Numbered from the stretch's first letter, positions 1 to 52,549 are shown. The stretch: DNA of 52,549 nucleotides from a virus (IMGVR_UViG_3300033153_009271:1-52549), one strand, 5' to 3'. Made by a program: numbers and translations. Notes: generated from the sequence alone by a model not told the origin.

Positions 1-114
1 ACTATCGCAGCTCTGTAAGATGCCGCCAGTGGGAGTGATCAAAGTCACATACTTTTCTCCGAATACTCCAGTCATAACAGATTTACAATGGTTCCGAAGG
101 ATCATCCCGAGAAT
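1..114. repeat. Terminal direct repeat, copy 1 (identical to 52436-52549); circular assembly overlap
   Basis: 114 nt from actatcgcag to cccgagaat are identical at both ends, and the Ro60 frame continues across the join. Confidence 0.97.
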
Positions 115-1164
115 GAGACCAACCTCACGTGTGCAAATCTTAGAGTGAGGAGAGATAGTACCTCTCATAGAGCCAGAGACGTCATTAGCGATCAAGACAC
201 GTGTATCACGATCGAACCCTGTAACGTTAGCAGCGGAGGCCTTCACGGCCTCTTCCAGAGCGTCGACAACCATCGCAGAGTCAGGAGAGGTAAGCTCTTT
301 AATTTCATTGTAGGCGGAGAGGAAACGGAATGGAAACTGCTTGGACTTGCGGACCTTCTCAGGATCAGCAAGCTGCTCACAGACAAGAGCAAGGTGCGTA
401 TGGTCTACCCCAGCTTCGATGAAGTTACGAAGATTCCGGAGGGTCGCCATGTAGCCCATCTTCCCTGAGTGGATCATATCTACCCAAGCCTTGAGCTTGG
501 CGGCCTCCTTCTCTTCGGGGGTCTTAACATCCTGACCTGCTTTAGAGAGCTTAGTCTCCCATGTCTCAGGAGTCTTAAGACCATCATCAACGATCTTATC
601 GAAGAGTGACTGGTTGGCATCTCCCTCAGGAGAAGGATGAACAAGAAACAGCGCATCACGGAGAGTGATGTCCCCCTTCCGGTTATACTTAGCGAACTGA
701 TATTCATCGAACTTATTGAATACACGAGCCAACCCCTTCTGTATTTGCTTTGAGAGAGGCTTAATCCGCCCATTCAGGTTCTGATAGTACGCCAGTATCT
801 CCATAATCTCATCAGGACGTTGTACAACACGTGAGAGAACCTTCTGGACCAGCTGATCACCACTATGTCGTCCAGCCAGCTCAACAACCAGCGCTATGGG
901 GACAGAACGGAGATACATCTTCTCACGTGCATAGACAGCAAGCTGTCCAATGAACTGAGAATCATCACGATCACAGAGTTCTGTGATCAAGGTACGGATA
1001 CGTGCGACACGATCATCACTGGACTCGTAGAACTTATCCTGAAATAGAAATGTTGCTACTGCAGAATACAACTCTACATCTTTAGGCATAGTATATGCCT
1101 CACCACCCTCATAGTTGGTGGTCTTGGTAGAAGGACGTCGGGAACGGGAAACGAAGGTTGCCAT
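1..1164 (-). CDS. Ro60/TROVE-domain RNA-binding protein, N-terminal part (continues at 52435-52067; about 510 aa in total)
   Basis: Manual translation from ATG 1164: MATFVSRSRRPSTKTTNYEGGEAY..DKFYES..YAREKMYLRSVP..VQRPDEIMEILAYYQ..FNKFDEYQFAKYNR..LRDALFLVHP..MGYMATLRNLRN..DVSGSM (vWA MIDAS); in frame with ORF 52067..52540. Confidence 0.93.
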   Translation of the reverse strand, partial: MATFVSRSRRPSTKTTNYEGGEAYTMPKDVELYSAVATFLFQDKFYESSDDRVARIRTLITELCDRDDSQFIGQLAVYAREKMYLRSVPIALVVELAGRHSGDQLVQKVLSRVVQRPDEIMEILAYYQNLNGRIKPLSKQIQKGLARVFNKFDEYQFAKYNRKGDITLRDALFLVHPSPEGDANQSLFDKIVDDGLKTPETWETKLSKAGQDVKTPEEKEAAKLKAWVDMIHSGKMGYMATLRNLRNFIEAGVDHTHLALVCEQLADPEKVRKSKQFPFRFLSAYNEIKELTSPDSAMVVDALEEAVKASAANVTGFDRDTRVLIANDVSGSMRGTISPHSKICTREVGLILGMILRNHCKSVMTGVFGEKYVTLITPTGGILQSCDS

Positions 1165-4318: not shown

Positions 4319-4471
4319 TTAAGCACGCCGTCTCCGGCGGGTTGTTCTCTTCCCCGAGGTCTTCCGCTCAGGAAGATGCTTCCCTTTTGGGGTTTTCCTT
4401 GCAAATCGCTTCGCTATACGCGGGTAATTTGCGAACAGGAATTTGCGCTGAGCTTTAGACTTAAAAGGCAT
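4319..4471 (-). CDS. Small basic phage protein (50 aa, not in the ORF track)
   Basis: MPFKSKAQRKFLFANYPRIAKRFARKTPKGKHLPERKTSGKRTTRRRRRA; resembles MPFKSKAQR-type small phage proteins. Confidence 0.8.
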   Translation of the reverse strand: MPFKSKAQRKFLFANYPRIAKRFARKTPKGKHLPERKTSGKRTTRRRRRA

Positions 4472-4486
4472 AGGTTGTCTAACATT

Positions 4487-6460
4487 CTACCACGAAGATG
4501 CAACATTTGCCACTTTCTGTTCTATCGATTGCTGCATAATGAAGTTCCCATGCTTGAAGTCGCACAGTAATGAGAACTCTGATGGGGATTTGTACTTATG
4601 TTTGCGTATTTCCACATGCATAAGATTAGCTTCCATTGGATCATATTTATGGCGCTTTAGTATTCCCGCGATATCTGCGGACGAATACAAATGGCCCGAC
4701 CCCTTCATAGAAATAAACCCATAGCTACCCAACTCATCCTTGATAGAGTCATTCGCTATCTGTGAGAGATCAATGATGGCTATGTTGTGCTTCTGTGCTA
4801 ACTTCTGGACTTGAATAGCGTACCGTGACATCTGCTCATACTCACCCTTAAAGAAACCGTCAGGTTCCACAGCTTGACAGAAATCTATAATGATGAAATC
4901 TAATCCAGGGCTCTTCTCAACAACTTGTTCATACTTCTTGAGCGAGTTCCCTGTCTGGGTCACGTCGTATATTTGGAGAGGCTTTAATACCTCTAAATCA
5001 TCAGGAGTAATCGATACATTCTTGCGGATGATATCCCAAAACCCTACACCCTTGATGATGCACAACATATGCGCAAGGACGAGGGAGCGCTGAACCTCTG
5101 TAGAGAAGATGATGCCTTTCTGATCATTACAAAGCATTTGATGCGCAAGGAAGTATGCTAGCTTTGACTTACCAATATTGGAAAACGCAGCAAGCCTCGT
5201 TACAGCCCCACGAATGATGATCTCATGTTCATTAATATCCTCATTCACATTAAGATGTTCAAAATTCACATTTCTCAATTCATCAAGGATGGTACTTATT
5301 CCTGTTATCTCTACCTCATCCGTCTGTTCCTCTGCCGCATTGATTTTCCCCGATTTGACATATTCATCTTTTGATAACTCTCTAATATGTGGGTATCGGT
5401 CCTTGAACCACTGGAAGATTTCACCGTTGTTGTTACCAGTAACAACTTGCACAAGATCCCATGGCTTGTAACCGTTATACTTATTAGAAATATGAGACGT
5501 ACCACCATGGATCAGGAGTGAATCTGACTCATCTGAGATGAAACACGCAGCCTTTATAGAAGACCCTGGCTCGAAGAAGTGTTTCCCCCTCTGCTCCCAT
5601 CCCAACAGGGTGCACACCACAGGGCCTATAGGAAGCTCCTGAATCGCTTTAAAGGTATCCTGCTTACTTGGATACTTACCCTGTGTCGCAACAGCTTTCT
5701 GACGGGTTTCCTCCTCAATGCGTTGATGCTCTGATTCACCGATAGCCTCCAACGACTTGATCATATCAGAATAGACATCTTGGAAATGTAATATCTCAAC
5801 CTTCTTTGGCGGATCAGACTTATAATTACTACTTCCCGGCACCCTTGCAATACGCGAAACGTTCACACACGATTTGTCTACTTCCACGCCACACAACTTT
5901 TCAATCGCCTCGCATTTCTTAATCATTCCTAATTTCCAATATGTTTTATTATATACAGTAATAGGCTCATCTGAGAAAAAGTATATATGAATACCATTTC
6001 CTGTAAAAACAATGTATCTCCAGGGACTATTTTTGAGTGGTCCGTCAATACATTTTTTAGCAAATTCCTTTATTTCTTCATCTGAAATCTCTAACTTTTC
6101 CTCGCGCGCGTTAATTAAATTATTATTCTTAGAATTAGAATTTAACGCATGTTTAGACTTCGTAGGAGCGTACTGCTTATCGTTCTGCTTTATTTTTTTA
6201 AGATTATTGATATTAGATTTTCTAATATCTAAGTCAAAGTATACATAATTTTTCTTGTTAATATCTTCATCGGCAGCACGATGGTTTTTAGCAGAACGCT
6301 CCACCCCCCCAAGGAAGTACAAATCACTTGGATGCTTGGCTATCGTCGCCTCGATATCTTCCCATGTCTCCGTCAACGCCAGTACTTTGTTGACTGCGCC
6401 GACTTGAGTTGTGCAGCCGCCAAGCTGGAGGTCAGTGAAAAATTGTTGATAAGTGTTCAT
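4487..6460 (-). CDS. Primase-helicase fusion (AEP-like primase plus DnaB/SF4-like helicase)
   Basis: YFDLD, FTGNGIHIY, SRIARVPGS (primase); AAFSNIGKS Walker A, FSTE, IIIDF, LSQ, GSG..SADI (helicase). Confidence 0.85.
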   Translation of the reverse strand: MNTYQQFFTDLQLGGCTTQVGAVNKVLALTETWEDIEATIAKHPSDLYFLGGVERSAKNHRAADEDINKKNYVYFDLDIRKSNINNLKKIKQNDKQYAPTKSKHALNSNSKNNNLINAREEKLEISDEEIKEFAKKCIDGPLKNSPWRYIVFTGNGIHIYFFSDEPITVYNKTYWKLGMIKKCEAIEKLCGVEVDKSCVNVSRIARVPGSSNYKSDPPKKVEILHFQDVYSDMIKSLEAIGESEHQRIEEETRQKAVATQGKYPSKQDTFKAIQELPIGPVVCTLLGWEQRGKHFFEPGSSIKAACFISDESDSLLIHGGTSHISNKYNGYKPWDLVQVVTGNNNGEIFQWFKDRYPHIRELSKDEYVKSGKINAAEEQTDEVEITGISTILDELRNVNFEHLNVNEDINEHEIIIRGAVTRLAAFSNIGKSKLAYFLAHQMLCNDQKGIIFSTEVQRSLVLAHMLCIIKGVGFWDIIRKNVSITPDDLEVLKPLQIYDVTQTGNSLKKYEQVVEKSPGLDFIIIDFCQAVEPDGFFKGEYEQMSRYAIQVQKLAQKHNIAIIDLSQIANDSIKDELGSYGFISMKGSGHLYSSADIAGILKRHKYDPMEANLMHVEIRKHKYKSPSEFSLLCDFKHGNFIMQQSIEQKVANVASSW

Positions 6461-7992: not shown

Positions 7993-8496
7993 ATGAACAC
8001 TTGGATAATCACCGATACCCACTTCAACGATCCTAAGTTGATTAAGAAGGGATTCAGGCCGCCTGACTATCAAGACCAGATCATGAATCACTGGAGGAAG
8101 ATGGTGGCCGAGGATGACCTAGTTATCCACTGTGGAGATGTCATCATACAGAGCGCGAGCGGACTGCCTAAAATTATGAGCGAACTGCCAGGTCGTAAGA
8201 TACTCGTCTGTGGTAATCATGATAAAAAGCCAGACTGGTACATGAAGAATGGAACCTTCGACTTCGCTTGCTACGCGCTGGAATATGGTCATGTGTACTT
8301 TACCCATCAGCCCGCTCAGCATCTACCTGCCGGTTGTAATTGGAATATTCATGGACACTGGCATGATGATGATCACCGCAAGGATACTGATGATCTGATT
8401 TACTCGAAGTGGAACCGCCTCTTTGCGATTGAGAGCACTGGGTATAAACCAGTACTTCTACAAAACCTTATCGAACAATATGAAAATAATTCTTAA
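7993..8496 (+). CDS. Calcineurin-like metallophosphoesterase
   Basis: TDTH, HCGD, GNHD, FTH, HGHWH motifs. Confidence 0.88.
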   Translation: MNTWIITDTHFNDPKLIKKGFRPPDYQDQIMNHWRKMVAEDDLVIHCGDVIIQSASGLPKIMSELPGRKILVCGNHDKKPDWYMKNGTFDFACYALEYGHVYFTHQPAQHLPAGCNWNIHGHWHDDDHRKDTDDLIYSKWNRLFAIESTGYKPVLLQNLIEQYENNS

Positions 8497-8508
8497 TTCT
8501 CTCTTGTT

Positions 8509-8874
8509 ATGTATAACCTAATAATTCCATCAATGGCATTATTCACAGCAGTCAGCTTCGGCTCCGAAGATATCTGGGATGCGCAGAACTGGACTGCGGT
8601 CGAACAAGAAGCACAGGCAATTATGGAGCAGGTTCCCTACACGTTTCCGTATCACTACAATACGATCTTCGCACATTCTCACCATCACTTCTCCGGACTT
8701 AATAGTATTGAGGTAGGAGATCTTGTGATCTACAACCGTTCACGTTTTCGGGTAAAGTATTTCAGGTTCGTCAAAGAATGGGAGACTGATATTCTGAAAC
8801 AGAATCCTGACGGGGTTACCTTAATTACATGCACGAACAACCCCCATGTGCGTTTAGCTGTTATTGCGAAATGA
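8509..8874 (+). CDS. Minimal sortase-family protein
   Basis: N-terminal hydrophobic stretch; FAH (His), F..L..IEVGD.V, TLITC (Cys), downstream RLAVIAK (Arg). Confidence 0.72.
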   Translation: MYNLIIPSMALFTAVSFGSEDIWDAQNWTAVEQEAQAIMEQVPYTFPYHYNTIFAHSHHHFSGLNSIEVGDLVIYNRSRFRVKYFRFVKEWETDILKQNPDGVTLITCTNNPHVRLAVIAK

Positions 8875-9491
8875 AACCACTCTTCATCACCGGCTGTCAC
8901 TGTAGCGGGACTACGTTCATGCAGAAGATGTTAGATCACTGGCGTAAAGAGCGCGATATATCTATAACAAATGAGCATGGTTACATTGGTATATGGGAAG
9001 CAGTAACGCGTAGTATTAAGGCAATAGATGATTCTTCTGATAAATTTGCTATCACGTCAATACCTACACATCATGTCGGGGAGACAAGACGATATATGAA
9101 CGTGGGGTTACGTGCTGCATATAAGCGCTTTCATCAAGATCGTAAGCCTGGTTGTAAGTACTATGGTGAGAAGAAGCCGAACATCTTATTGATGATTAAT
9201 TGGGTACGCAGACAATTCCCAGAAGCGAAGTTTATCATCATGGAACGTAATCCAGATGCGATAATGGAGTCATTGAAGACTCGTGACCTGCCGGAGTTCA
9301 CTGATGAAACACTGGAGTCCACAATGAAGGTATACCTTGATATCATTAAAAATCAGAAGGGTAAGGAAGACTGCCTGTTCGTTGATCTACATAGAATCCA
9401 AGGAGGAGAAAAGTTTGCTGTATTCAAGGAAGTTGCTAACTTCTTAGAAGTACCATTTGATTTTGACCTTTCCAAAGTACGGAACCAATGA
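8871..9491 (+). CDS. PAPS-dependent sulfotransferase family protein
   Basis: PLFITGCHCSGTT (5'-PSB loop), GEKKP, FPEAKFIIMERNP..IMES (3'-PB). Confidence 0.82.
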   Translation: MKPLFITGCHCSGTTFMQKMLDHWRKERDISITNEHGYIGIWEAVTRSIKAIDDSSDKFAITSIPTHHVGETRRYMNVGLRAAYKRFHQDRKPGCKYYGEKKPNILLMINWVRRQFPEAKFIIMERNPDAIMESLKTRDLPEFTDETLESTMKVYLDIIKNQKGKEDCLFVDLHRIQGGEKFAVFKEVANFLEVPFDFDLSKVRNQ

Positions 9492-9955
9492 TTAAACGTT
9501 ATGAACAATTCATGCTGGCGAGTAATACTATTGAGGGAGAACCCCGCACGTATCCTGCAGATGTTCCTGCCGTTGAACATGTTGTTGATGGCTGTAATGA
9601 TGCGCGTGACCCTACACAAGAGGACTTGTTGATACTACATGCTATGTTGAGTAAAGATCGTACGCTTATATACAAGGGTGAATGGAGGAAGTGCAATGTA
9701 ACCGTAGGGAATCAAATATGCCCGCCGTGGAGGGAAGTACCGGCACTTATGGATAAATACTTTGAATTTTGGCATTCTTATGGCGCGTGGAAGGCTCACA
9801 ATGATTTTGAGAAGATCCACCCCTTCGAAGACTTAAACGGCCGTGTGGGGCGGTTACTGTGGCTTTGGAAGATGATCAGAGAATACGGTGAGAGTACTGC
9901 ATTCCAATTACCATTTCTCCATAGGTATTATTATCAGACCCTTACCCATATGTGA
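9488..9955 (+). CDS. Fic-domain protein with N-terminal inhibitory motif
   Basis: HPFEDLNGRVGR; SNTIEG matches (S/T)xxxE(G/N). Confidence 0.88.
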   Translation: MIKRYEQFMLASNTIEGEPRTYPADVPAVEHVVDGCNDARDPTQEDLLILHAMLSKDRTLIYKGEWRKCNVTVGNQICPPWREVPALMDKYFEFWHSYGAWKAHNDFEKIHPFEDLNGRVGRLLWLWKMIREYGESTAFQLPFLHRYYYQTLTHM

Positions 9956-51180: not shown

Positions 51181-51393
51181 TTAAGAATTAAGTTCAATAA
51201 GTCTCTGCAGGAAATACTCTGCCTTTCTAAGATCTTCTACACCACCCTTGCGAGACCATCGTGAAAGGTACTTGAGTATGTTTCCCTCGTGGTATGTCAG
51301 GTTCCAGTCTTCTATGATTGTAAGCGGTTCAATCATTCGCCCCTCGGTATAGTGCGCGGGTCTTGCGATGTTGTCTGGTTTTACTTCTTTCAT
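51181..51393 (-). CDS. DUF3310-family protein
   Basis: D..RPAHY..IE..GNILKYL.R...KGGVEDLRKA. Confidence 0.88.
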   Translation of the reverse strand: MKEVKPDNIARPAHYTEGRMIEPLTIIEDWNLTYHEGNILKYLSRWSRKGGVEDLRKAEYFLQRLIELNS

Positions 51394-51574
51394 TGGTGGT
51401 ATTGAATCCGATAGAAGGTTTAGATTTCTTTGATTTGTCAGTATCCTCTTTCTTCATTAGAACTAGATATGCAGCTCCGGTAGACCGCTCCAGTATCGAT
51501 GTCTGATGAATCTGCCACCCATCGGGAACCTTAATTTGTTTACCTCTGGTGACGAGTTCGCATCGCAGCTTCAT
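51329..51574 (-). CDS. Hypothetical protein
   Basis: ORF with TATACT 7 nt upstream of the ATG. Confidence 0.55.
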   Translation of the reverse strand: MKLRCELVTRGKQIKVPDGWQIHQTSILERSTGAAYLVLMKKEDTDKSKKSKPSIGFNTTNERSKTRQHRKTRALYRGAND

Positions 51575-51591
51575 AGAGATAAGTATAGATT

Positions 51592-51774
51592 ATCCGAGGC
51601 AATAACTGCAAAGGGTAGGTGATATCGTCTCACGCACGCGACGTCGGAAGATTTAGCGACCGAACGAGCTGGGTCTTTCTCCCAGCTACAAATCAGAAGT
51701 CAGCCTTGTGAGGCTGTATTCAGGAGGCTTATGCATAAGATAAGCGAAGGAACCCTGTGCACCGGCACTCGGAT
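51592..51774 (-). ncRNA. Y RNA-like element D (long, multi-hairpin insert)
   Basis: AUCCGAG-UGCCGG-UGCACAGGGU-UCCUUCG...ACCCUUUGCA-GUUAUUGC-CUCGGAU closing helices; same motifs as element B. Confidence 0.7.
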
Positions 51775-51813
51775 TATTGGGATGTTACCACCCACCTTAT
51801 GGTGGACCTAATC

Positions 51814-51870
51814 GGTTAAACGTCTGAGAGGGCATTAAGAGGCGAAGCAACTCTTCTCTACTGGCACCTC
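51814..51870 (-). ncRNA. Y RNA-like element C (short, degenerate)
   Basis: GAGGUGCCAGUAGAGAAGAGUUGCUUCG resembles the 5' half of element B; weaker closing helix. Confidence 0.5.
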
Positions 51871-51896
51871 AATGTGGATTCCTAACCAATTGAATA

Positions 51897-51988
51897 TTGG
51901 AGGTAACAAGCGAGTAAAGGTAGGTAGGGGACTTGCACCCCTAAGTCGTTTTTCAAAGCGAAGTAACTTTACTCTAACGACACTCCAA
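51897..51988 (-). ncRNA. Y RNA (YrlA-like) element B with tRNA-like arms
   Basis: UUGGAG-UGUCGUUA-GAGUAAAG-UUACUUCG..UAGGGG-UGCAAGU-CCCCUA..CUUUACUC-GCUUGUUAC-CUCCAA; about 80 nt downstream of the Ro60 stop. Confidence 0.8.
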
Positions 51989-52023
51989 GGAGGGGGTAAC
52001 GGTGTGAAGGAACAATTTAGGAT

Positions 52024-52072
52024 CTGTGAGGCTATAACTGGGGAGGGTTCTCAATCCCTACGGCACTCACAG
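52024..52072 (-). ncRNA. Minimal Y-RNA-like helix (element A) overlapping the Ro60 stop codon
   Basis: CUGUGAG-UGCCGUA-GGGA...UCCC-CAGUUAUAGC-CUCACAG. Confidence 0.6.
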
Positions 52073-52549
52073 CTTGATCCTGCGAATCTCCTCAATAGCG
52101 CTTGAGCCATTTTCAATTGCATCGAGGACATCGAAGACTTTATCAGACCAGCCGGCGACATAGTACACGTCTGGTGCCATGATGGAAACAGGGGTATTCC
52201 CATAGCCTGCCACATCAATGATGTAGAGCTTGGCCTCTGGTGAGATATTCTTCTTGTAATCACTCCAAGCAGCCTTGAGAGCATCGGCATTTCCACCTCC
52301 CCACATGTAACTATCGCTATTCCATAGCTGAGTATCAGTGATAAGAAAGACCTTATCGAAGACATCCTTTTCCATCTCGTGGGCACGGAGCACGAGGTGT
52401 CCGTTGGTAGAATGCCCCACATTAGGAGTATTCATACTATCGCAGCTCTGTAAGATGCCGCCAGTGGGAGTGATCAAAGTCACATACTTTTCTCCGAATA
52501 CTCCAGTCATAACAGATTTACAATGGTTCCGAAGGATCATCCCGAGAAT
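52067..52549 (-). CDS. Ro60/TROVE protein, C-terminal vWA part (continuation of 1164..1)
   Basis: GHSTNG..FDKVFLITDTQLW..W..YK..PEAKLYIIDVAGYGNTP..VAGWSDKVF. Confidence 0.92.
   Translation of the reverse strand: MLGMILRNHCKSVMTGVFGEKYVTLITPTGGILQSCDSMNTPNVGHSTNGHLVLRAHEMEKDVFDKVFLITDTQLWNSDSYMWGGGNADALKAAWSDYKKNISPEAKLYIIDVAGYGNTPVSIMAPDVYYVAGWSDKVFDVLDAIENGSSAIEEIRRIKL
52436..52549. repeat. Terminal direct repeat, copy 2
   Basis: Identical to 1-114. Confidence 0.97.

What the first reader, a model, noticed from the sequence alone, without database searches (positions are those of the whole stretch)
51814..51988. Anticodon-loop-like and T-arm-like payloads in the Y-RNA elements: possible tRNA decoys
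Seen: after CUUCG, element B has a short arm with loop UUGAAAA (Phe-GAA-like; Ser-UGA-like UUUGAAA in the other register), then a 6-bp stem with the 7-nt loop UGCAAGU, like a T arm. At the same position element C has CUCUUAA, the canonical Lys-CUU anticodon loop, but its stem is weak and an alternative fold exists. Established: YrlA RNAs mimic tRNA, and several anti-phage nucleases such as PrrC cut tRNA-Lys anticodons. Inference (speculative): Ro60-stabilised decoys for anticodon nucleases or tRNA-modifying enzymes.
Basis: partly seen in the sequence, partly recalled or inferred. Interest (0 to 1): 0.7.

Follow-up and report, generated by a model that had tools for sequence, protein, structure and literature searches.

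The report
Phage Y RNAs beside Ro60 gene
The flagged stretch holds two small RNA genes of a known kind (Y RNAs, partners of the Ro60 protein) in a phage genome; one carries a real tRNA-like T arm, but the supposed anticodon loops are not there.

Summary
The window is a circular phage contig. Its Ro60 (TROVE) gene runs across the window ends on the minus strand. Four Y-RNA-like elements follow it on the same strand.

Element B (51986-51899) is a sound Y RNA. A covariance model built only from 11 bacterial "T-arm-only" Y RNAs finds it full length (46.8 bits, E 1e-8), with its T arm on AGGGG-UGCAAGU-CCCCU. So the T-arm observation holds.

The anticodon-loop observation does not hold:
- No Y-U-NNN-R-N heptamer in 51814-51988 is closed by 3 or more pairs.
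- B's linker is unpaired in the centroid fold and is not conserved among the homologs.
- C (51870-51828) aligns as a Y hairpin without payload. Its CUCUUAA is largely the 3' strand of the stem.

Neither element matches Rfam YrlA, and ARAGORN finds no tRNA.

The decoy idea is already in print as speculation for YrlA (PMC7790460) and gains no support for B or C. One related phage contig does carry whole anticodon arms inside Y RNAs.

Verdict: new members of a known kind, of modest interest.

The parts
52067..52549 (-). 3' part of the phage Ro60 (TROVE + vWA) gene, with its TGA stop at 52069-52067. The gene continues from window 1164..1 across the 114-nt terminal repeat.
   Evidence: PF05731 hits at 289-1020. 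Open frame 1..1164. 114-nt direct terminal repeat. phrog_850 positions 1-322 and 313-469 on the two halves.
1..1164 (-). 5' part of the same Ro60 gene (388 codons).
   Evidence: 74% identical to the Ro60 of L012 and 50-54% to Bacteroidota Ro60.
52026..52070 (-). Element A: small Y-like hairpin overlapping the Ro60 stop codon. It has helix GUGAG/CUCAC, a U bulge, a GC/GC pair and the 5' motif GUGCCGUAG, but no UUACUUCG junction.
   Evidence: Fold -13.3 kcal/mol, z -2.4. Weak model hits: R1 at E 1, R2 at 14.9 bits, E 0.41. Aligns with L012 E1.
51899..51986 (-). Element B: complete Y RNA of the T-arm-only type (88 nt).
   Evidence: R2 full-length hit, 46.8 bits, E 1.1e-8. R1 hit on the 5' module, E 1.4e-5. 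Fold. Covarying helix 1 in the alignment with 11 homologs.
51959..51986 (-). B 5' module: helix 1 (GGAG), bulged U, GU, the motif GUCGUUAG, the helix-2 5' strand GAGUAAAG, and the junction UUACUUCG.
   Evidence: Consensus of 137 bacterial modules is aGGUGUCGUAGAaaAGaGUUACUUCG.
51944..51958 (-). No stable arm forms here. It occupies the position of the YrlA variable (V) region.
   Evidence: Unpaired in the centroid fold. No closing stem. Not conserved among homologs.
51925..51943 (-). B T-arm homolog: UAGGGG / UGCAAGU / CCCCUA.
   Evidence: The same loop variant GGUGCAAGUCC occurs in L153 and L158, and GGUGCAA in 21 non-window elements in all. It resembles the T arm of the Rfam Tymo_tRNA-like consensus (16.2 bits, E 1.2, below threshold).
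51899..51919 (-). B 3' strand: CUUUACUC (helix 2), GCUUGUU (internal loop), AC and CUCC (helix 1).
51828..51870 (-). Element C: short, deviant Y hairpin without payload. It has GAGG-U-GC ... GC-CCUC, AAGAG/CUCUU, and the apical loop UUGCUUCGC.
   Evidence: R2 hit at 26.2 bits, E 8.5e-4, with 51 model positions replaced by 9 nt. R1 partial hit, E 0.006. Folds.
51595..51771 (-). Element D: about 177-nt Y-like RNA outside the flagged range. It has a 5' GAGUGCCGGUG, a 3' CAGUUAUUGCCUCG, and a local hairpin CUUAU-CUUAUGC-AUAAG at 51744-51728.
   Evidence: Fold z -2.4. R2 hit on the 5' part at 16.3 bits, E 0.19. Ends align with L012 E5.

Best explanation
The flagged stretch encodes two of four Y RNAs that a phage, probably of a Bacteroidota host, carries directly downstream of its own Ro60 gene on the same strand.

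Element B:
- Its 5' and 3' ends pair into the bulged Ro60-binding stem: 4 pairs, a bulged U, a G-Y/R-C pair, the motif GYCGUAG, then a 7-8-pair second helix.
- That stem closes a loop that opens with the family-wide junction UUACUUCG.
- The loop holds a short unstructured linker and a single T-arm mimic.
- B therefore belongs with the T-arm-only Y RNAs.

Element C is a shortened, deviant copy. The two strands of the stem are joined by a 9-nt pyrimidine-rich loop, so CUCUUAA is mostly the 3' strand of the stem and not a loop.

Inferred, not shown: phage Ro60 binds the stems. B's T arm, a tRNA-elbow mimic, serves as the effector-binding module that tethers the Ro60 ring to a host RNA-handling protein, most likely PNPase or another tRNA-elbow binder. 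This follows the RYPER complex and the phiLo phage Ro60-Yrl-PNPase complex. C acts as a payload-free gate on Ro60 or is decaying.
For: Context:
- The Ro60 gene is adjacent on the same strand.
- The strict 5'-module pattern occurs 360 times on the Ro60 strand and 34 times on the other strand, across 169 related loci plus the window. The window's own two, B and C, are among the 34 because its Ro60 is on the minus strand.

Model hits:
- Sequence model R1 of 137 bacterial modules hits B (E 1.4e-5) and C (E 0.006) in 58.7 kb.
- Covariance model R2, built from 11 bacterial T-arm-only Y RNAs with no window sequence, hits B full length (46.8 bits, E 1.1e-8) and C (26.2 bits, E 8.5e-4). A and D are its next best window hits.

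Structure:
- In the 12-sequence alignment, 9 of 15 predicted pairs show double changes, including 5 of the 6 pairs of helix 1 (with its G-Y/R-C pair) and 4 of the 5 T-arm pairs.
- For helix 2, 221 of 349 elements have a perfect 7-pair partner, against 80 for shuffled heptamers, with 170 distinct heptamers.
- The fold of B gives helix 1, helix 2 and the T hairpin.

Literature:
- phiLo phage Ro60 binds two phage Y-like RNAs and host PNPase (PMC12135203, abstract and passages).
Against: - No expression or binding data exist for this phage.
- B's fold energy is not better than shuffles (z -1.0), and nor is C's (z -0.9).
- R1's training set was picked by a regex, so part of its conservation is by construction.
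- R2 rests on 11 sequences that I chose by eye, with an effective number of 2.95.
- B's motif reads GUCGUUAG, not the literal GNCGAA of the YrlA paper.
- B's T loop has G where tRNA has U55, and no D loop is there to pair with it, so elbow mimicry is incomplete.
- C deviates at two of the most conserved places: an extra A in GCCaGUAG, and UUGC for UUAC. It may be non-functional.
- Only one close relative (L012) exists, and its middle elements do not align one-to-one with B and C.
Confidence: 0.72

Rival explanations
1. One reading: B and C display anticodon-loop mimics (Phe/Ser-like, Lys-like) plus a T arm. As Ro60-stabilised decoys, they soak up anticodon nucleases or tRNA-modifying enzymes of the host.
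For: - Y RNAs of this family do mimic tRNA (PMC4201824).
- A competitive-inhibitor role of YrlA against an anticodon nuclease has been floated (PMC7790460).
- In the one close relative, L012, two Y elements hold full anticodon arms with 7-nt loops CUUAUAA and CUUAUAC. The Rfam tRNA model matches them at 41.3 and 31.1 bits over model positions 10-63 and 9-63, and ARAGORN calls one tRNA-Ile(UAU).
- Window element D has CUUAU-CUUAUGC-AUAAG.
- In 77 of 175 canonical Bacteroidota elements, the hairpin after CUUCG can have a 7-nt loop, with U at position 2 in 55 of the 77 and a purine at position 6 in 59 of the 77.
Against: - In B and C themselves no such loop is closed by 3 or more pairs.
- B's linker is unpaired in the centroid, and C's CUCUUAA is paired in the stem.
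- Linkers of the 11 T-arm-only homologs are unrelated in sequence and length.
- The L012 ortholog of D has a 5-nt UUUUU loop at that place.
- Loops of 9 or 10 nt are about as feasible as 7 in the canonical set: 76 and 64 elements against 77.
- ARAGORN sees embedded tRNAs in only 3 Y elements, with three different anticodons.
- S. Typhimurium YrlA 'lacks the anticodon loop' (10.1101/312249, passage).
Confidence: 0.06
2. A T-arm-only decoy or competitor. B's T arm, held on Ro60, competes with tRNA for an elbow-binding host factor (for example a T-loop modifying enzyme, RNase P or a defence protein). It does not tether Ro60 to a nuclease.
For: - The T arm is the only conserved payload of B.
- YrlA T loops are recognised by TruB in vivo (PMC4201824).
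- The structural paper expects an elbow-binding effector (10.1101/312249, discussion passage).
Against: - G replaces U55, so the TruB target base is absent.
- Nothing here separates tethering from competition.
- Both phage and bacterial precedents are tethers to PNPase (PMC12135203, PMC4201824).
Confidence: 0.12
3. B and C are decaying relics of fuller tRNA-like Y RNAs and no longer work. Only A or D, or none, serve the phage Ro60.
For: - L012 keeps canonical GGUUCGAUUCC T loops plus D and anticodon arms where the window has reduced payloads.
- C has lost its payload and deviates in conserved motifs.
- The window has no match to YrlA RF02553 at E up to 10.
Against: - B keeps every part of the stem, the bulged U, the junction and a perfect 6-pair T arm, and it scores E 1e-8 against bacterial homologs.
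- T-arm-only and hairpin-only Y RNAs are normal members of bacterial arrays.
Confidence: 0.1
4. The region is protein-coding on the plus strand (ORF 51872..52105, 77 aa) and not RNA genes.
For: An open frame of 77 codons exists.
Against: - It has no PHROG match.
- It runs against all neighbouring genes and overlaps the Ro60 3' end.
- The RNA models explain the sequence on the other strand.
Confidence: 0.01

Closest known systems
M. smegmatis YrlB and similar T-arm-only Y RNAs (Chen et al. 2014, PMC4201824); here also 11 Bacteroidota examples (L027, L167, L045, L077, L080, L168, L092, L093, L112, L014, L156)
   Same: They share the Ro60-adjacent position on the same strand and a bulged terminal stem. 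The payload is reduced to a T arm with no acceptor-like stem or D arm. B aligns full length to the model of the 11.
   Different: B's T loop is UGCAAGU, with G at the U55 place, against UUCGAAU in all 11. The host genome is a phage. B's 17-nt stretch between UUACUUC and the T arm has no GG that could stand in for a D loop.
YrlA (Rfam RF02553; S. Typhimurium structure, 10.1101/312249)
   Same: Both have a 5' Ro60 motif, a conserved YUAY about 22 nt from the 5' end (UUAC at nt 21-24 of B), a V region and then a T arm. tRNA mimicry is established for this family.
   Different: B and C lack the acceptor-like stem-loop and the D arm. The window has no RF02553 match at E up to 10. True Bacteroidota YrlAs score 35-49 bits.
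Small hairpin Y RNAs with a pyrimidine-rich loop (S. Typhimurium YrlB, D. radiodurans Yrn2; PMC4201824, passage)
   Same: C is predicted as a stem with a 9-nt loop UUGCUUCGC.
   Different: C is much shorter (43 nt). Its 3' internal loop is cut to AAU, and its conserved motifs deviate.
Thermus phage phiLo Ro60 with Yrl1 and Yrl2 (PMC12135203)
   Same: A phage-encoded Ro60 has phage-encoded Y-like RNAs next to it. That paper proposes hijacking of host PNPase.
   Different: The phiLo RNAs lie upstream of the gene and were found through a CGAA motif. Here four elements lie downstream and carry the Bacteroidota-type module. No binding data exist here.
D. radiodurans Yrn1 (D arm-like, 'anticodon arm', T arm in tRNA order; PMC4201824)
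   Same: It is the closest known precedent for an anticodon-arm-like hairpin inside a Y RNA. L012 E3 has this order.
   Different: B and C have no such arm. The Yrn1 loop has 6 nt.

Membership tests
Bacterial/phage Y RNA (Ro60-associated) | Encoded within about 4 kb of a Ro60/TROVE gene, on the same strand. | tested here: met
   B starts 81 nt and C 197 nt downstream of the Ro60 stop, on the minus strand.
Bacterial/phage Y RNA (Ro60-associated) | 5' motif GNCGAAN0-1G, the putative Ro60 contact. | tested here: inconclusive
   The literal motif is not met: B has GUCGUUAG and C has GCCAGUAG. The consensus of 137 Bacteroidota-type modules is GYCGUAG, and B fits it.
Bacterial/phage Y RNA (Ro60-associated) | 5' and 3' ends pair into a bulged stem, supported by covariation. 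| tested here: met
   Helix 1 pairs change on both sides in 4-8 of 12 sequences, with the bulged U invariant. Helix 2 has partners in 221 of 349 elements against 80 in the shuffled control.
Bacterial/phage Y RNA (Ro60-associated) | Bound and stabilised by Ro60. | not testable with these tools
   No RNA or binding data. No sequencing run was listed.
YrlA (RF02553) | Permuted tRNA-like domain: T arm, acceptor-like stem-loop and D arm. The Rfam model has a gathering score of 69 bits. | tested here: not met
   0 matches at E up to 10 in the whole window. B has only a T arm and C has none.
T-arm-only Y RNA | The stem closes a loop with the UUACUUCG junction, a short linker, one T arm, and 5-7 nt before the 3' strand. 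| tested here: met
   B scores 46.8 bits, E 1.1e-8, full length, against a model made without it. C does not meet it, as it has no T arm.
tRNA or anticodon-arm mimic | 5-pair stem closing a 7-nt loop with U33 and a purine at position 37. | tested here: not met
   No Y-U-NNN-R-N heptamer in 51814-51988 has 3 or more closing pairs. ARAGORN finds 0 tRNAs in the window. The only Rfam match in 51300-52300 that points to a tRNA-like structure is Tymo_tRNA-like at E 1.2; the three others are miRNA families at E 7-9.
tRNA T arm | 5-pair stem and 7-nt loop U54-U55-C56-R57-A58-N-Y60, with a G53-C61 closing pair. | tested here: inconclusive
   B has the stem, U54, C56, A57, A58, U60 and a G-C closing pair, but G at position 55. 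The same variant occurs in other Y RNAs. The numbering and consensus are recalled tRNA knowledge.

The most novel reading that the evidence does not exclude
Phage and Bacteroidota Ro60 loci use one conserved Ro60-binding scaffold (stem plus the UUACUUCG junction) as a display stand for interchangeable mimics of translation RNAs. These include T arms (window B), anticodon-arm hairpins (window D; L012 E3 and E4, both with UAU), whole tRNAs and even a 23S rRNA segment. In phages these Ro60-protected mimics would act as competitive inhibitors of host RNA-targeting defence nucleases or modification enzymes. On this reading the window's array is a trimmed counter-defence kit, not a PNPase tether.
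Probability: 0.1. Interest if true: 0.75.

Novelty: new member of a known kind. Interest (0 to 1): 0.3.

Why it matters
Y RNAs next to phage Ro60 genes have been known since 2014, so this is mainly a correct annotation of RNA genes that no standard tool catches. Rfam and ARAGORN both return nothing here.

It adds a phage example in which none of four Y RNAs has the full tRNA-like domain, and a T-loop variant with G at the U55 place. It also shows that the junction UUACUUCG belongs to the scaffold and not to the payload.

If the decoy idea were true, it would link phage Ro60 to evasion of tRNA-targeting defences. The evidence for that lies in relatives, not in the two flagged elements.

Tried and rejected
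- Rfam at gathering threshold over the whole window gave 0 matches.
- Rfam at E up to 10 over 51300-52300 gave four weak matches, none of them a Y RNA or tRNA family.
- ARAGORN on the window found 0 tRNAs.
- Plus-strand reading: the plus strand shows RGCGAAG, which looks like the YrlA motif GNCGAAG. I rejected it because that motif would then sit near the 3' end, and all model hits and homologs lie on the Ro60 strand.
- Closer relatives. GenBank phages by DNA gave no match. By protein the best was 38%. IMG/VR with the W+L012 profile gave none. A D-type 3'-end pattern in IMG/VR gave 0. Only L012, at 74% Ro60 identity, was found.
- The pairwise alignment of the window and L012 intergenic regions aligned only the first and last elements.
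- Sequencing runs: none was listed and no RNA holder was listed.
- Promoter scan (sigma-70 type) found 0 sites. The 'terminator' at 51925-51943 on the plus strand is the T arm read backwards.
- Earlier findings by place: nothing on this genome.
- Reviews PMC10870794 and PMC6047535 are not held.
- Supplements of PMC4201824 (the Y RNA lists for 22 phages) were not seen and may already hold similar phage RNAs.
- cmscan did not itself report LSU rRNA for the rRNA-like Y payloads.

Full report
**Setting**

The window is a circular phage contig with a 114-nt terminal repeat (IMG/VR virus record). A Ro60/TROVE gene lies on the minus strand and runs across the window ends, from 1164..1 and then 52435..52067. 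The evidence:
- PF05731 hits at 289-1020.
- Open frames on both sides.
- phrog_850 positions 1-322 on one half and 313-469 on the other.

The gene sits in a leftward replication/early block: a DnaB-like helicase, a LexA/DnaD-like protein, then after the RNA region DUF3310 and RusA. Its closest protein relatives are a metagenome phage contig, L012 (74%), and Bacteroidota Ro60s (50-54%). So the host is probably a member of Bacteroidota.

**What lies downstream of Ro60**

Read on the minus strand, the 490 nt between the Ro60 stop and the next gene (ATG at 51574) hold four elements:

| Element | Coordinates | Note |
|---|---|---|
| A | 52070-52026 | overlaps the Ro60 stop codon |
| B | 51986-51899 | inside the flagged range |
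| C | 51870-51828 | inside the flagged range |
| D | 51771-51595 | outside the flagged range |

The finding (51814-51988) covers B, the spacer after it, and C. Rfam at gathering threshold and ARAGORN return nothing in the window.

**The family**

Chen et al. 2014 (PMC4201824; parts 1-2 read in full, further passages) describe YrlA in this order:
- a 5' motif GNCGAAN0-1G;
- a conserved YUAY at nt 22-25;
- a V region, a T arm, an acceptor-like stem-loop and a D arm;
- the 3' strand.

I fetched 169 loci around relatives of the Ro60. A strict pattern for the 5' module occurs 360 times on the Ro60 strand and 34 times on the other. The window's B and C are among the 34, because its Ro60 is on the minus strand.

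An alignment of 137 of these modules gives the consensus aGGUGUCGUAGAaaAGaGUUACUUCG. The set was picked by regex, so part of the invariance is by construction.

Its UUAC is the YUAY of the literature (nt 21-24 in B). The structural paper places the conserved UA of that motif at a kink or in the variable loop (10.1101/312249, passage).

The same scaffold carries very different payloads in bacteria: full YrlA-type domains, T arm only, plain hairpins and others.

**Element B**

A sequence model of the 137 modules (R1) hits B at E 1.4e-5 in 58.7 kb searched on both strands.

I then built a covariance model, R2, from 11 bacterial or metagenomic Y RNAs whose payload is a T arm only. It contains no window sequence, and only helix 1 and the T arm are given as pairs. 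The 11 were chosen by eye. Three of them are near-identical, and the effective number is 2.95.

R2 finds B full length at 46.8 bits, E 1.1e-8, with the model's T arm on AGGGG-UGCAAGU-CCCCU.

In the 12-sequence alignment, 9 of 15 predicted pairs change on both sides while staying paired. These include 5 of the 6 pairs of helix 1 (with its G-Y/R-C pair) and 4 of the 5 T-arm pairs. The bulged U is invariant.

The second helix (GAGUAAAG/CUUUACUC in B) is supported family-wide. Of 349 elements, 221 have a perfect 7-pair partner within 150 nt, against 80 for shuffled heptamers, with 170 different heptamers.

RNAfold gives helix 1, helix 2 and the 6-pair T hairpin. The total energy is no better than shuffles, at z -1.0.

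The T-like hairpin is the only one with 6 pairs in the window. Seven with 4 or more pairs occur in 105 kb.

Its loop has G where tRNAs have U55. The same GGUGCAAGUCC occurs in two Chryseobacterium Y RNAs (L153, L158), and GGUGCAA in 21 non-window elements in all. It also resembles the T arm of the Rfam Tymo_tRNA-like consensus, though the match (16.2 bits, E 1.2) is far below threshold.

**The 'anticodon-like' arm of B**

The stretch between CUUCG and the T arm (CUUUGAAAAACGACU) is unpaired in the centroid fold. In the MFE it forms only a 3-pair UUC/GAA hairpin with a 5-nt loop.

Across 51814-51988, 14 heptamers fit Y-U-NNN-R-N, against a background of 12 per 175 nt. None is closed by 3 or more pairs, where the background is 0.68 per 175 nt and shuffles average 0.7.

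In the 11 homologs the equivalent linker is 13-26 nt long and unrelated in sequence. Where a hairpin exists it has a GAAA tetraloop (L093 and L112, with compensating stem changes), a 5-nt loop (L092) or a 4-nt loop (L014).

**Element C**

R1 matches only GUAGAGAAGAGUUGCUUCG (E 0.006).

R2 aligns C end to end (26.2 bits, E 8.5e-4). GAGG-U-GC at the 5' end pairs with GC-CCUC at the 3' end, and 51 model positions are replaced by 9 nt.

Both predicted folds pair most of CUCUUAA. It pairs either with the GAG of the 5' motif or, in the longer context, as CUCU with AGAG. In the canonical register, AAGAG pairs with CUCUU around the 9-nt loop UUGCUUCGC.

C is thus a payload-free, pyrimidine-loop hairpin of the kind described for YrlB/Yrn2 (PMC4201824, passage). 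It is short and deviant, with an extra A in GCCaGUAG and UUGC in place of UUAC.

The string CUCUUAAUGCC does resemble the hairpin after CUUCG in some canonical YrlAs. Examples are CGA-CUCUUAA-UCG in L016 and GCA-CUUCUAA-UGC in L167. I cannot exclude descent from such a hairpin, but no stem is left.

**Does any Y RNA here carry an anticodon arm?**

Not B or C, but relatives do.
- In L012, element E3 holds a D arm, an anticodon arm (CCAAC-CUUAUAA-GUUGA) and a T arm in normal tRNA order inside the Y loop. The Rfam tRNA model scores 41.3 bits over model positions 10-63, and ARAGORN calls tRNA-Ile(UAU).
- L012 E4 has UCAGA-CUUAUAC-UCUGA plus a T arm (31.1 bits).
- Window D has CUUAU-CUUAUGC-AUAAG right after its CUUCG. 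The L012 ortholog of D has GAUGA-UUUUU-UCAUC there, and the MFE of D does not use the local hairpin.
- ARAGORN finds embedded tRNAs in only 3 Y elements of all loci, with anticodons UAU, GUA and AGG.
- Among 175 canonical elements, 77 can form a hairpin of 3 or more pairs with a 7-nt loop after CUUCG. U is at loop position 2 in 55 of the 77 and a purine at position 6 in 59 of the 77. Loops of 9 nt (76 elements) and 10 nt (64 elements) are about as feasible.

This fits a tRNA origin of these RNAs (the dimeric-tRNA model cited in 10.1101/312249) better than selection for a given anticodon.

**Membership**

- B meets the general Y-RNA features that can be tested, and it meets the T-arm-only subclass.
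- It fails YrlA proper. RF02553 gives no match at E up to 10 in the window. Genuine Bacteroidota YrlAs score 35-49 bits, below the 69-bit gathering score.
- The accession RF02553 came to me from earlier notes of this scan, and I checked it.

**Function**

Nothing here tests function. By analogy I take two precedents:
- RYPER in D. radiodurans (PMC4201824, introduction).
- The phiLo phage Ro60-Yrl-PNPase complexes (PMC12135203, abstract and passages).

On that basis, B most likely binds phage Ro60 through the stem and uses the T arm to engage a host protein. C is a gate-type RNA or a decaying copy.

The decoy idea is not new. Hughes et al. 2020 suggest that the YrlA tRNA-like domain may act as a competitive inhibitor of an anticodon nuclease (PMC7790460, passage). 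It remains possible for the T arm, but there is no support for anticodon-specific decoys in B or C.

**Verdict**

- These are new members of a known kind.
- This scan has noted Y RNA arrays and orphan YrlA-like RNAs on other DNA before.

Noticed in passing
L140 about 5689-5760; L028 about 1134-1200; L104 about 1832-1900: Some bacterial Y RNAs carry, right after the UUACUUC junction, a copy of a 23S rRNA segment. L140 has a 33-nt exact blastn match (E 7e-14) to L180, which Rfam calls LSU_rRNA_bacteria (1589 bits). L028 has 27 nt at 96% and L104 has 23 nt at 96%. A paper search listed no title or abstract on rRNA-mimicking Y RNAs.
   Followed up: partly
L012 4255-4370 (E3) and about 4430-4522 (E4): In the closest relative of the window's phage, two Y RNAs hold tRNA cores in normal (not permuted) order. 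Both have anticodon arms with a UAU loop, although their stems and T arms differ. ARAGORN calls E3 tRNA-Ile(UAU). E4 may also have a 7-pair acceptor-like pairing ending in GCCA, seen by eye only.
   Followed up: partly
window 51728-51744 (-), inside element D: The hairpin CUUAU-CUUAUGC-AUAAG (5 pairs, 7-nt loop, U at position 2, UAU, G at position 6) lies directly after D's CUUCG. The L012 ortholog has a 5-nt UUUUU loop there, and the MFE of D pairs this stretch elsewhere.
   Followed up: partly
L003-L011 and many of L012-L171: In related phages and bacteria the Ro60 gene sits among arrays of real tRNA genes: 37 tRNA hits in 9 viral loci. The window has none.
   Followed up: no
e.g. L014 4070, L027 5851, L146 2206, L167 5354; and L016 4148, L050 4083, L125 4186: Two further recurrent payload types sit on the same scaffold. 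One reads GGGGAGGAAU...AUCCGGUUCGACUCCGG...GCCCCG. The other reads ...GAGGUGCAAAUCCUC-AGCUUGACAGCG.... Neither was identified.
   Followed up: no
canonical elements in L013, L014, L016, L043, L109 and others: In many Bacteroidota YrlA-type RNAs the hairpin between CUUCG and the T arm looks like an anticodon stem-loop followed by AGGUC, for example CGA-CUGUUAA-UCG. That is, it looks like the 3' half of a tRNA.
   Followed up: partly
window 51881-51891 with 51810-51820 (-): A predicted 11-pair stem (AAUUGGUUAGG / UUUAACCGAUU) brackets element C in the centroid fold. It was not tested by comparison.
   Followed up: no
window 7993-9955 (+): The phage also encodes a metallophosphoesterase, a sulfotransferase-family protein and a Fic/DOC protein in a row.
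   Followed up: no
window 1-114 and 52436-52549: A 114-nt exact terminal repeat shows the contig is circularly permuted. The window ends cut the Ro60 gene.
   Followed up: yes
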